A DNA stretch of 12,797 nt from the UHGV virus genome UHGV-1675436; one strand, given 5' to 3'. Made by a program: the position numbers. Position 1 is the stretch's first letter. Each line of letters opens with the position of its first letter. This DNA is from a virus. Of the stretch, positions 6,001 to 9,000 are shown piece after piece.

Positions 6001-9000
6001 GGGAGTGGCTTTCACGGAATGCCGCCATCCACACGGTTGCAGCACGACGGTATAAGCCTCTTGACTCCAGTTCTTCAGCCTGGCGGGTCAGGCACAAAAT
6101 CACCCGGGGATCGTTAGTGCCGACATAGAAATTGCGCACAGGTCTGGTTTCACGAACTGGTTGTGGTTCCGGCTCCTGCGCTCTCTCAGTCAGGCGTGGG
6201 AAATGTCTGCGTGTATCTCCTTCACAACGGTGAGCCACACGCCCACTCTGACGTAACTTGCTTGCTGACTGCAGAACGCGCTGCCGTGAGTAACCTGCAA
6301 AAGCATCCGCAATGTCTCCGGAAGTACACCCCGGATGGGCTTCAATGAATTTCTGAACTTCATTCAAAAGACTCATGATCACCCCCTGAATCCTGCCGGG
6401 ATCTGGCTGTAGTCCACGTTGTCGTAACTGGCTTTGAAGTACGGGTCCTCGCGTCTGGCTGCAGATACCGCAGGAACTTCCCAGAATTCTTCGAAATGAC
6501 GATCCGGACCAAAGAACGTGACAGCCTGTTTCACAAATTGTGTGCCGCTGTTACCCATCGCAGATACCCATCCCGCGTAGCGTTTCACACCTTCCAGCAT
6601 GGTTTCGGGGTTTACTCCCTCATTCAAACGGGCTTTCCAGGCTTTGAAGGCTGCAGATTTTGAATTGCCACCAGCACGTTTGGGATATGCCAGCCATGCC
6701 TGCTCAAACTCCGGAGAATATTCCGGTCGGTTTGAACGAACTCGCACGGACTCATCAACTGATGCACCAACAGCTATTGGTTCATTGACTGGTTCTTTGA
6801 CTGGTTCAAAAGAGTGACTGGTTCTGGGTGAATCTCCTGCACTACCCCCTGGTGCAACTCCTGCACTACCTGGTGAATTTGCTGCACCAGATAGTGAATT
6901 ATTTGCACTACCCCCTAGTGAATCTCCTGCACCATCCAGATGAAGGAGATAGATATTACTTGAGTTACCTTTTTCACCTTTCCGGGTGACTTTTTTTACC
7001 AGCCCGGACTCACAAAGGGCCGCAATATGATTCATCACAGAACGTTTGCTAATCTCGCACTGGTCAGCAATATGCTGGTAGCTGGGCCAGCACTCACCCT
7101 GATCGCTGGCATTATCAGCCAGCTTGATCAGAACCAGTTTTCGCAATGGATTACCCACTCGAATTTTCATCGCTTTAACCATCAGCTCCATACTCATGCT
7201 GCACCTCCGAGATGCTTCATGTTTTTTCCGGAGCGAAAGGCTATAAGCGGCATACTGACGCGGTAATTACGGCCCAGCGGTTCACAAATCACCTTCTGGC
7301 ATTCACGGTCAACCAGGCTAACACGTAGAACATGCCCTGCAGGTGTGGTGTACCACTGCCCAACTGTAGGAATTGATGTTTTTTTACGCTGAAGCAAACG
7401 GCAAATATTGAGGATCAACGGATTAAGCATGACGATGCCCTCCGCTGATATTCAGGAGACGGTGAATATGAAAATTAGCCTTATCCGCCAGACGAATACG
7501 TTCAGCCTGCAAGTTAAGAAGGGTTTCTACCAGAACTTGATGCGCCTGCGGATCCGAAAGAGTTACCTTGCGCAGAGCACGTAGTGCAGTTGTTACATAA
7601 CTGAGTTTATGTAAGTCTTCATCATTCAGACGAGAGAGGGCTGGGACAGTAGCCATGATGGCAGCCTCCGTATGCAATGGATAACTTCCACCACCGGAAA
7701 CGCCAATTTCGCTGGTGGTGAACTGAACGGGGTTGGCGTAACCGGCGTTATCGGAAACCGGCGCACCTTTCGGTGCCCCCGTCCAGCCCACCATAATTTG
7801 GGTGTGCACAGACGCAGACGATAAAAAAGACGCTGGCGCGTCATATATCGCCGATAACATTTCCAGGACGCCAATCCCGGCACCCGCTTTATAAGGTGCC
7901 TGAACAGTGTAACGTCCCGGAATGGCAGAATCAATGTGCTGGTGGTCCTTCACACTCAACAAAATCACGCCTGAATTTCCACAAAGGACTAAAGCACTCA
8001 TGCGGGTAGTCTTTGCGAAGATAGATAACGCGCTGTGTTTCTGGCTCCCAACGAATAACATGGACATAAAGCCCTCTTCCGTCACGAAACCAGCGGTTAA
8101 GTTCCTGCACAACTCGCCCCCCACAGTCAGGTAAAGTTCTCTGTGGTTACTTACAGCCAGGTGATTTGGTAATCTGCATTCATGCCGTAACAACAGGTGT
8201 TCAGCGACGCTGACCACCAGCTGTTGCGACAAACGGTTATTTGCCGTTAAACTGTTCATGCGTTAGTTTCTCCACAGACACAAAACGCCACGACGCCCGG
8301 AGCTGCACACTCGCGGGCGTCACTCTTTTCTGGAGCGCAAAAGATTTTGTAGACCAGTGCTGCATGCTCCTGGAGCTTCGAAATTGACAGATACAACTCA
8401 TCATTAATTGCTGTCCGCTCGTGTGGCTCCACTACCCCATCTTCGATTGCCGAACGAATCTGCTTTGAGTAACTCCCGATCTGTTCGATGACTTCCAGCA
8501 GGCGCTGGTTTATATCGGCGTTCTCTACTTCCTCAATTTCAGGAAGCGATACAAACACCCCACCAGCAGACTGTGCGACAGCATCCGCAATGTAGTGAGT
8601 GCCAGCCGCGCGCTGTAAAATCATTGCCCATCCCAGCGGGAAAATCTGATCGCCATCTGCACGAAGGCGGTTGAATAAAGCGTTCTCTGTTACATCCAGC
8701 CACTCAGCAGCTTCAGCGTAACCCCCCGGCAACGCCGCGATAGTTTTTCTGACAGCTTTCACGTACCACTCAGGCTGTTTTTCTACTTTCCAGTGATGCT
8801 TACCCACGGTTAGCCTCATCGTTCTGTGGTTAAAAATTGAAGGTGTTCTGTTAATCTTTCGGATAGATATCCGGTCTTAAGTCAGATTTCGTAATTGCAC
8901 CTGACGTGCATTGCTCAAGTTTTTTAGCCAGCACAAAACTGGCTTTTTTATAACCATTGAAAACCAGCCGTAAGTAGCCTGGTGTTGAGCCAACTTTTCC

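What the first reader, a model, noticed from the sequence alone, without database searches (positions are those of the whole stretch)
6785..7000. Iteron-like tandem repeats embedded in the replication initiator gene (candidate ori)
Inside the O-like gene the DNA carries three TGACTGGTTC repeats and 4-5 tandem units of about 20-24 bp sharing exact 12-15-mers, followed by a moderately AT-rich stretch. At the protein level the same DNA encodes a Gly/Ser/Ala-rich linker between the HTH domain and the C-terminal domain. This mirrors lambda, where ori iterons lie inside O and encode its interdomain linker. No P/DnaC-like helicase loader follows the initiator; a PerC-like regulator does, so the way this replicon recruits the host helicase is open.
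Basis: partly seen in the sequence, partly recalled or inferred. Interest (0 to 1): 0.55.

Follow-up and report, generated by a model that had tools for sequence, protein, structure and literature searches.

The report
Replication origin inside a prophage initiator gene
The repeats are real and are almost certainly binding sites for the phage's own replication initiator, forming a lambda-style origin inside that protein's gene; this is a well-known arrangement seen here in a very common, little-studied prophage family that carries no helicase or helicase loader.

Summary
The gene at 6379-7197 (minus strand, 272 aa) is 98.7% identical in DNA to the SfV orf39 replication gene. It holds five 19-bp dyad-symmetric sites, T-R-GTGCA-N5-TKCAC-Y-A, spaced 24/21/21/24 bp at 6826-6934. 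Next to them lie three copies of GAACCAGTCA at 6786-6824.

- Among diverged relatives, synonymous codons are 74-100% identical across the array and flanking element, against 27-47% in the DNA-binding domain. Amino-acid identity is lowest in the array.
- Site sequence changes with the initiator's recognition helix (41 helix variants, about 10 site classes).
- Sites occur flipped in some arrays, and copy number runs from 1 to 9.
- The encoded peptide is predicted to be disordered.

Two corrections. The AT-rich stretch (6940-6999) is the least stable DNA in the gene but is not conserved at silent sites. The TGACTGGTTC repeats are not iterons. They belong to a 37-nt element conserved at nucleotide level across the whole family, and its 9-mer is read in all three frames.

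No helicase or loader gene occurs in the window or in the whole SfV genome. The C-terminal domain pairs with DnaC-like loaders in other phages, so it probably recruits host DnaB-DnaC.

Verdict: a new member of a known kind.

The parts
6379..7197 (-). Replication initiator gene (272 aa). It is 98.7% identical in DNA to SfV orf39 and 99.0% to the mEp460 replication gene.
   Evidence: ORF and translation. Pfam HTH_36 at 44.1 bits against a cutoff of 25. PHROG 270 'replication initiation protein', E 2.4e-88. Phage matches.
6934..7197 (-). N-terminal winged-helix DNA-binding domain, aa 1-88. The recognition helix is aa 51-64.
   Evidence: AlphaFold2 pLDDT 85-95 with helices and a beta wing. Foldseek hits are generic winged-helix proteins and the DnaD N-domain. 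Variability across 53 homologues peaks at aa 50-75.
6916..6934 (.). Iteron 1. Core on the coding strand: GTGCAGGAGATTCAC.
6892..6910 (.). Iteron 2. Core: GTGCAAATAATTCAC.
6871..6889 (.). Iteron 3. Core: GTGCAGCAAATTCAC.
6850..6868 (.). Iteron 4. Core: GTGCAGGAGTTGCAC.
6826..6844 (.). Iteron 5. Core: GTGCAGGAGATTCAC.
6790..6827 (.). Element conserved at nucleotide level across the family. Coding strand: CCAGAACCAGTCACTCTTTTGAACCAGTCAAAGAACC. It encodes the peptide PRTSHSFEPVKEP.
   Evidence: Identical-residue codons are identical in 323/333 cases here, against 690/1765 in the N-domain, among 9 homologues chosen by protein similarity. The element sits at the junction where C-terminal domains are exchanged.
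6786..6824 (.). Three copies of GAACCAGTCA (6815-6824, 6798-6807, 6786-6795). They are read in two different frames in this gene.
6940..6999 (.). Moderately AT-rich stretch encoding the wing of the DNA-binding domain. It is the least stable duplex in the gene. Its role is uncertain.
   Evidence: Stability profile. Silent-site identity is only 0.29-0.36 here among diverged relatives.
6478..6726 (-). C-terminal helical domain, aa 158-240, carrying the YPKRAGGNSK motif. It is the presumed helicase or loader recruitment module.
   Evidence: AlphaFold2 pLDDT 74-90. No Pfam family. PHROG 1701 'DnaD-like helicase loader', E 8.8e-33. Domain shuffling and neighbouring genes.
6382..6477 (-). Disordered C-terminal tail ending ...DYSQIPAGFRG.
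   Evidence: Tail class correlates with which helicase genes follow.
7194..7430 (-). 78-aa ORF overlapping the initiator start codon (PHROG 1153, function unknown). Possible accessory factor.
   Evidence: A homologue lies upstream of the ASU11 initiator, which shares only the C-terminal domain.
5888..6382 (-). PerC-family (yfdN-like) gene immediately downstream of the initiator. It is not a helicase loader.
   Evidence: Pfam PerC, E 7.8e-9. RefSeq annotation.

Best explanation
This is the replication origin of an SfV/ST64B-type lambdoid prophage, embedded in its initiator gene as in phage lambda.

Proposed mechanism:
1. After induction, rightward early transcription (cro, cII-like, ash, the 78-aa ORF, then the initiator) produces the 272-aa initiator.
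2. Its N-terminal winged-helix domain binds, probably as a dimer, to each of five 19-bp dyad-symmetric iterons (T-R-GTGCA-N5-TKCAC-Y-A). These are spaced two helical turns apart at 6826-6934.
3. The resulting nucleoprotein complex destabilises flanking DNA. The candidate sites are the family-wide conserved element at 6790-6827 and, less likely, the AT-rich stretch at 6940-6999.
4. The C-terminal helical domain and its ...GFRG tail recruit the host DnaB-DnaC complex, because the phage encodes no helicase, loader, primase or polymerase.

Shown here: the repeats and their dyad symmetry; constraint at the DNA level; tracking of site sequence with the recognition helix; copy-number variation; modular domain exchange; and the absence of phage helicase or loader genes.

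Inferred: binding, the place of unwinding, origin activity, and the route of helicase recruitment.
For: - **Statistics.** 5 matches to GTGMANNNNNTKCAC against 0.10 expected, all in the array.
- **Dyad symmetry.** It extends to positions -2 (T in 119/125) and +16 (A in 120/125), which the search pattern did not impose.
- **DNA-level constraint, one pair.** Window versus Aeromonas phage AsXd-1: in codons 66-139, 48/50 identical-residue codons are identical although amino-acid identity is 0.68. The figures are 16/49 in the N-domain and 30/58 in the C-domain.
- **DNA-level constraint, many pairs.** Over 302 diverged pairs, silent-codon identity is 0.27-0.47 in codons 1-88 and 0.74-1.00 in codons 85-140. 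Amino-acid identity falls to 0.33 in the array.
- **Specificity pairing.** Every N-domain homologue examined has a repeat array of 21-24 bp period at the same place, with a different sequence and a different encoded peptide. Across 121 genes, 41 recognition-helix variants map to about 10 site classes. A Mantel test gives r 0.43 for helix distance versus array distance, against 0.23 for aa 1-43.
- **Flipped units.** Some arrays contain inverted units, which changes the peptide but keeps the site.
- **Copy number.** 1, 2, 5, 7, 8 and 9 units occur in near-identical alleles.
- **Co-inheritance.** N-domain and iterons travel together. P0176 joins a Min27-type N-domain and its own iterons to this C-domain.
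- **Disordered peptide.** pLDDT is 25-46 over the array-encoded region.
- **No helicase or loader.** None in the window or in the whole viable SfV genome. All 40 related loci with this C-domain and tail, and with at least 2.5 kb of downstream sequence, lack one.
- **C-domain partners.** The same C-domain precedes DnaC-like loaders in POCJ13 and BcepIL02.
- **Precedent.** Lambda, P22 and L each carry distinct iterons inside their initiator genes (PMC8022706).
Against: - There is no experimental evidence of binding or of origin activity for this family in the literature I could reach.
- No strongly AT-rich unwinding region adjoins the array. The conserved element is 40-46% GC, and the AT-rich stretch is not conserved at silent sites. 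In lambda the flanking region is about 27% GC (my count on the sequence).
- Linkage alone produces some correlation between the helix and the adjacent array, so the Mantel result is not proof of recognition.
- Viable phage SI8 has only one such site, and alleles with 1-2 units exist. A multi-site array is therefore not strictly required in all relatives.
- The IMG/VR loci were selected through the conserved element, so its conservation in that set is circular. Only the protein-selected set counts for it.
Confidence: 0.78

Rival explanations
1. The sites do bind the initiator, but they act mainly as an operator or copy-control element (autorepression, a transcription roadblock, or handcuffing and incompatibility as in iteron plasmids). 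The true origin would lie elsewhere in the phage.
For: Plasmid iterons have both roles (established knowledge). The array lies inside the initiator's own transcription unit. No strongly AT-rich region adjoins it. SI8 manages with a single site.
Against: The position between the DNA-binding and recruitment domains matches the mapped origins of lambda and the repeat arrays reported in P22 and L (PMC8022706). No second cluster of sites exists in the 12.8-kb window. The N-domain plus array moves as one module joined to different helicase-recruitment modules, as expected for an origin and initiator pair.
Confidence: 0.1
2. The repeats are only a low-complexity protein linker expanded by replication slippage. 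They have no function as DNA.
For: All units are multiples of 3 nt, and the encoded peptide is Gly/Ser/Ala-rich and disordered. Copy number varies as expected for slippage.
Against: Silent sites are the best-conserved positions, while the peptide is the least conserved part of the protein. Peptide composition differs completely between relatives (G/S/A, P/T/S, M/P/A/D), whereas period and dyad symmetry persist. Some units are flipped. The neighbouring 9-mer is read in three frames.
Confidence: 0.03
3. The conserved 37-nt element (and possibly the whole central block) is kept because it is a recombination linker at a module boundary. Homologous exchange there shuffles origin-specific and helicase-specific halves of initiators. 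It would have no direct role in initiation. This concerns the TGACTGGTTC part of the finding and does not exclude the iteron reading.
For: C-terminal domains of at least five kinds begin right after the element. Recombinant P0176 is joined there. Short conserved sequences at lambdoid module boundaries are known: a 33-nt block at oop/O shared by 23 lambdoid phages (PMC3349717).
Against: The 97% silent-site identity holds between phages of Vibrio, Aggregatibacter, Aeromonas, Pectobacterium, Salmonella and Escherichia whose flanks are saturated with silent changes. This is hard to maintain without direct purifying selection. The 9-mer AACCAGTCA also recurs elsewhere in some genes and in other frames.
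Confidence: 0.25

Closest known systems
Phage lambda ori / O protein (four 18-19-bp dyad iterons inside gene O, followed by an AT-rich region; the C-terminal domain of O binds P, which brings in DnaB)
   Same: The origin-like array lies in the middle of the initiator gene, between an N-terminal DNA-binding domain and a C-terminal recruitment domain. The sites are about 19 bp with internal dyad symmetry, spaced roughly two helical turns apart. The array encodes a flexible linker. The gene sits in the rightward early operon after cII. Site sequence differs between relatives with different N-domains.
   Different: There is no detectable sequence similarity to O and no Pfam Phage_rep_O hit. There are five sites rather than four. 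The flanking conserved DNA is 40-46% GC rather than strongly AT-rich. There is no P gene or any other loader.
P22 gene 18 and phage L gene 18 (initiators with their own repeats inside the gene, followed by a DnaB-type helicase, gene 12)
   Same: Repeats specific to each initiator lie inside its coding region. Replication modules are exchanged as units (PMC8022706).
   Different: Those phages carry their own helicase; this one carries none. The repeat sequences and initiator families differ.
Initiator-only replication modules of temperate phages, as classed in the review by Weigel and Seitz 2006. This is cited from memory; the paper is not in the held library.
   Same: A single initiator gene with an internal repeat array and complete reliance on host helicase, loader and primase. 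The whole SfV genome fits this description.
   Different: I could not check whether that review lists SfV or ST64B, or describes these particular sites.
Iteron plasmids (pSC101, R6K, RK2, F, P1)
   Same: Directly repeated initiator-binding sites of about 20 bp. The host supplies DnaB and DnaC. Copy number of the sites is variable.
   Different: Plasmid iterons usually lie outside the rep gene and next to DnaA boxes and an AT-rich region. Here there is no DnaA box in 12.8 kb. The initiator has a single winged helix rather than a two-winged-helix Rep fold.
DnaD-like replisome organisers of Firmicutes and their phages
   Different: All of these matches are below curated or meaningful thresholds. 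The hosts are Gammaproteobacteria, which lack DnaD and DnaI.

Membership tests
Lambda-type origin embedded in the initiator gene | Several direct repeats of about 19 bp with internal dyad symmetry inside the initiator coding region | tested here: met
   Five sites at 6826-6934, against 0.10 expected by chance. The 19-bp dyad is supported by flanking positions that the pattern did not impose.
Lambda-type origin embedded in the initiator gene | The array lies between the DNA-binding domain and the recruitment domain and encodes a flexible linker | tested here: met
   Winged helix aa 1-88, disordered aa 91-157, helical domain aa 160-230.
Lambda-type origin embedded in the initiator gene | Repeat sequence is specific to the initiator's DNA-binding domain and changes with it | tested here: met
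   41 helix variants map to about 10 site classes. Mantel r 0.43. Recombinant P0176 keeps its N-domain together with its own sites. Physical linkage is a caveat.
Lambda-type origin embedded in the initiator gene | Selection acts on the DNA sequence itself | tested here: met
   Silent-codon identity 0.74-1.00 in the array and element, against 0.27-0.47 in the N-domain.
Lambda-type origin embedded in the initiator gene | A strongly AT-rich unwinding region directly beside the iterons | tested here: inconclusive
   The downstream element is 40-46% GC. The upstream stretch 6940-6979 is the least stable in the gene but is not conserved at silent sites. Both flanks average about 0.40 GC, against 0.49 for the genes.
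Lambda-type origin embedded in the initiator gene | The initiator binds the repeats and the segment supports initiator-dependent replication | not testable with these tools
   Needs EMSA or footprinting and a replication assay.
Lambda O / P replication module | The initiator belongs to the Phage_rep_O family | tested here: not met
   No Phage_rep_O hit at E<=0.01. BLASTP against lambda O finds nothing meaningful.
Lambda O / P replication module | A P-type or DnaC-type loader gene follows the initiator | tested here: not met
   The genes that follow are PerC-like, Dam, a LexA-like DNA-binding protein, RusA, KilA-N, HNH and Q. There is none in the whole SfV genome. 40 of 40 related loci lack one.
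Pfam HTH_36 (PF13730) winged-helix proteins | Score above the gathering cutoff | tested here: met
   44.1 bits against a cutoff of 25, aa 17-67.
DnaD-like replisome organisers | DnaD_N and DnaD C-terminal (DnaB_2) domains above threshold | tested here: not met
Iteron plasmid origins | DnaA boxes next to the iterons | tested here: not met
   TTWTNCACA gives 0 matches in the window.
Initiator-only phage replication module | The complete phage genome encodes an initiator but no helicase, loader, primase or polymerase | tested here: met
   The full SfV annotation has 53 protein genes, and orf39 is the only one annotated for replication. The initiator gene is 98.7% identical to orf39, and the neighbouring genes match the SfV order.

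The most novel reading that the evidence does not exclude
The 37-nt element beside the iterons may be an origin core shared by the whole initiator family. It carries AACCAGTCA repeats that are read in all three frames. It is conserved at 97% of silent sites across phages of six bacterial genera whose iterons and helicase-recruitment domains differ. It could be the site of unwinding or helicase entry, or a host-factor site, kept fixed while specificity modules are swapped on either side. In the initiator-only version, the uncharacterised C-terminal domain and its ...GFRG tail would recruit host DnaB-DnaC directly, with the tail motif deciding which helicase system is used.
Probability: 0.35. 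Interest if true: 0.6.

Novelty: new member of a known kind. Interest (0 to 1): 0.42.

Why it matters
This initiator is common. A match covering at least 80% of the gene occurs in 897 of 5,426 complete E. coli genomes. It is also found in Stx2c-, Stx2a- and cdt-converting phages and in serotype-converting SfV.

Knowing where the origin lies and what defines its specificity would help in several ways:
- predicting which co-resident prophages are compatible or interfere with each other;
- explaining replication, and hence toxin-gene dosage, of non-lambda-type Stx phages, whose replication regions are described as poorly understood (PMC8044961, PMC8951638);
- providing a set of natural initiator and site pairs for orthogonal replicons.

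The initiator-only layout also offers a simple system for asking how a phage recruits the host helicase without a loader of its own.

Tried and rejected
- **Positive control on lambda O**. The relatives fetched (g341c, GE_vB_TR) are too close to lambda at the DNA level throughout, and Turner has a different N-domain and different dyad repeats. The silent-site contrast could not be calibrated, so the control was uninformative.
- **Other readings of the region.** No Rfam family. No sigma-70-like promoter on either strand. One terminator-like hairpin, at chance level. No DnaA box.
- **Antisense ORF 6828-6989 (53 aa).** It is kept open automatically by in-frame repeats, and it does not cover the most conserved element. 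Rejected as the source of the constraint.
- **Literature.** The SfV genome paper (PMC134923) and the Weigel and Seitz review are not held. The SfI and SfIV papers and the two Eru papers do not mention repeats or an origin in this gene.
- **Circularity caveat.** The IMG/VR loci were found through the conserved element. I did not use them as evidence for that element's conservation.
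Full report
**What the window is.** The 12.8-kb window is the early region of a lambdoid prophage. Most genes are on the minus strand.
- cI-like repressor: 9142-9816, plus strand.
- Going leftward on the minus strand: a cro-like gene, a CII/CP76-like gene (8256-8819), an Ash-family gene (7423-8259), a 78-aa ORF (7194-7430) and the initiator (6379-7197).
- After the initiator: a PerC-family gene (5888-6382), Dam methylase, a LexA-like DNA-binding protein, RusA, KilA-N, DUF968/HNH, antiterminator Q (1934-2728) and a DNA methylase.
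- The initiator gene is 98.7-99.1% identical in DNA to the replication genes of SfV (orf39), mEp460, Ayreon and several Stx2c- and Stx2a-converting phages.
- A match covering at least 80% of the gene occurs in 897 of 5,426 complete E. coli genomes.
- The window has the same gene order as the SfV early region from orf30 to orf48.

**The observation.** On the + strand there are five tandem units.
- They start at 6828, 6852, 6873, 6894 and 6918, giving spacings of 24, 21, 21 and 24 nt.
- Each has a 15-nt core matching GTGMANNNNNTKCAC.
- The pattern has 5 matches in the window, all here, against 0.10 expected. None of 200 shuffles reaches 5.
- TGACTGGTTC occurs three times at 6786-6824.
- The 40-mer at 6940-6979 is the least stable duplex in the gene and in the top 2% of the window.
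- The gene runs right to left, so its order is: winged-helix domain, AT-rich stretch (which encodes the wing), five repeats, TGACTGGTTC region, C-terminal domain.
- The repeats encode aa 88-124. AlphaFold2 gives a confident winged helix for aa 1-88 (pLDDT 85-95), disorder for aa 91-157 (pLDDT 25-46) and a helical domain for aa 160-230.

**Selection is on the DNA, not the peptide.**
- Against the 68%-identical gene of Aeromonas phage AsXd-1, identical residues use identical codons in 16/49 cases in the N-domain and 30/58 in the C-domain. In codons 66-139 the figure is 48/50, although amino-acid identity there is only 0.68. Differences in that block fall mostly on codon positions 1 and 2 (28 versus 8).
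- Over 302 diverged pairs of genes with the same recognition helix, silent-codon identity is 0.27-0.47 for codons 1-88. It rises to 0.74-1.00 for codons 85-140, which is window 6780-6945. Amino-acid identity drops to 0.33 inside the array.
- The constrained block is therefore the array plus the TGACTGGTTC region. The AT-rich stretch is not constrained at silent sites.
- Half-sites GTGCA and TKCAC stay fixed while the central five bases vary.
- Positions -2 (T, 119/125) and +16 (A, 120/125), which the search pattern did not impose, extend each site to a 19-bp dyad.
- In some relatives a unit is inverted. This changes the peptide but keeps the site.

**The sites follow the initiator's recognition helix.**
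- A protein search of phage genomes shows extensive domain shuffling.
- Every homologue of the N-domain that I fetched has an array of 21-24-bp period at the same place. These are phages of Escherichia, Salmonella, Pectobacterium, Aeromonas, Vibrio and Aggregatibacter.
- Each array has a different dyad-symmetric core and a different encoded peptide. Examples: GGGCAG-N3-CTGCCC in Min27, TGTGCC-N9-GCACA in S135 and ZF40, GTGAC-N5-GTCAC in mEp013 and Vibrio phage D160.
- In 121 genes there are 41 distinct recognition-helix strings. They fall into about ten site classes, one class per helix motif.
- Variability of the domain is concentrated in aa 50-75. Array distance correlates with helix distance (Mantel r 0.43) more than with aa 1-43 (r 0.23). 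Physical linkage contributes to this, so it is supporting evidence rather than proof.
- P0176 is a natural recombinant. It carries a Min27-type N-domain with Min27-type sites joined to this window's C-domain.
- Copy number in near-identical alleles is 1, 2, 5 (the usual form, a cluster of 2,852 sequences), 7, 8 (also phage cdtI) and 9.

**The TGACTGGTTC region is something else.**
- Directly after the array, every N-domain homologue chosen by protein similarity carries nearly the same DNA: (A/C)CCAGAACCAGTCACTCTTTTGAACCAGTCAA(A/T)GAACC.
- Identical residues use identical codons in 323/333 cases there, against 690/1765 in the N-domain.
- The 9-mer AACCAGTCA is read as RTSH in one copy and as EPV in the others. 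In Min27, SI8 and mEp013 it is read as NQS, so all three frames are used.
- The 9-mer is expected 0.0035 times per gene by chance. It is absent from initiators that share only the C-domain.
- The element is thus a DNA feature that belongs with the N-domain family, whatever the iteron sequence. It lies exactly where different C-domains are joined.
- From my own knowledge of the classical comparisons of lambda, phi80 and 82: their origins also combine phage-specific iterons with a conserved flanking region.
- I cannot tell whether the element is the unwinding or helicase-entry site, a host-factor site, or a recombination linker. Its peptide is predicted to be disordered.

**Helicase recruitment.**
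- The window contains no helicase, loader or primase gene. Neither does the complete genome of viable phage SfV.
- There is no DnaA box in the window.
- Its genomic company is informative. With the tail ...GFRG, 40 of 40 loci with enough flanking DNA have no helicase or loader downstream. With tails ...KLTF...CNW or ...FNW, 4 of 4 are followed by a roughly 290-aa protein and a DnaB-like helicase.
- The same domain on other N-domains precedes DnaC-like loaders in POCJ13 (tail PPGFRG) and BcepIL02. It also matches proteins annotated as YdaU or DUF1376.
- N-domain homologues with other C-domains are followed by P-like loaders, primase-helicases or DnaB helicases.
- The most economical inference is that this domain and tail engage a DnaC-type loader, here the host's. 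This is inference only; I put it at about 0.4.

**Comparison with what is known.**
- The layout matches lambda, where four 18-bp annotated iterons at gene nt 349-433 are followed by an AT-rich region. It also matches the repeats reported inside gene 18 of P22 and L (PMC8022706).
- The protein is not a lambda O homologue by sequence. The flanking DNA is not strongly AT-rich, and no loader gene is present.
- The Stx-phage replication-region papers list HTH_36 proteins in several 'Eru' types but do not mention repeats or an origin (PMC8951638).
- I could not read the SfV genome paper or the 2006 review of phage replication modules, either of which may already describe this.

**Verdict.** This is a new member of a known kind. 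Its unexplained feature is the family-wide conserved element, and its open mechanistic question is how the host helicase is recruited.

Noticed in passing
window 6786-6827; also L006 and L009 gene nt 232, L012 gene nt 376: The 9-mer AACCAGTCA recurs 2-3 times beside the iteron array in every homologue of the N-domain. It is read in all three reading frames. It is absent from initiators that share only the C-domain.
   Followed up: partly
window 7194-7430 (minus strand): A 78-aa ORF (PHROG 1153, function unknown) overlaps the initiator start codon. A 49-53% identical homologue sits directly upstream of the ASU11 initiator, which has a different N-domain but the same C-domain. It may be an accessory replication factor.
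   Followed up: partly
window 6382-6477; loci L004, L013, L015, L060, L080, L091: The C-terminal tail motif of the initiator (…GFRG versus …KLTF, …CNW or …FNW) correlates with whether a DnaB-like helicase gene follows.
   Followed up: partly
protein P0176: A natural recombinant: a Min27-type N-domain with its own iterons is joined, at the conserved element, to a C-domain identical to this window's.
   Followed up: no
L009 2796-2810 (Salmonella phage SI8): A viable P22-like phage has only one iteron-like site in its initiator gene. Alleles of the window's gene with 1 or 2 units also exist (P0152, P0138).
   Followed up: partly
window 6211-6225: A lone iteron-like site with one mismatch (GTGTATCTCCTTCAC) lies inside the PerC-like gene. 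The number of such near-matches is at chance level.
   Followed up: no
window 6974-6999 (+ strand): A terminator-like hairpin followed by a T-run lies on the strand antisense to the initiator gene, within the AT-rich stretch. The count is at chance level.
   Followed up: no
window 8851-9354 (minus strand): The mechanical ORF for the cro-like gene is too long and overlaps the cI start. In SfV the annotated cro is 201 nt, so the real start is probably near 9051.
   Followed up: no
plasmid records H121, H124, H125: Circular 38-45-kb records filed as plasmids in E. coli, Salmonella and Klebsiella carry this initiator gene or a close relative (99.3%, 99.6% and 71.7% protein identity). They look like whole phage genomes captured as episomes.
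   Followed up: no
L013, L014, L016 (initiators with other N-domains): Initiators that share only the C-domain also have short tandem repeats just before that domain. Examples: TACAGAGAATAC x3.7 in ASU11 and TGTCACGACA x5 in Tritos. Origin-like arrays in the linker may be general.
   Followed up: no
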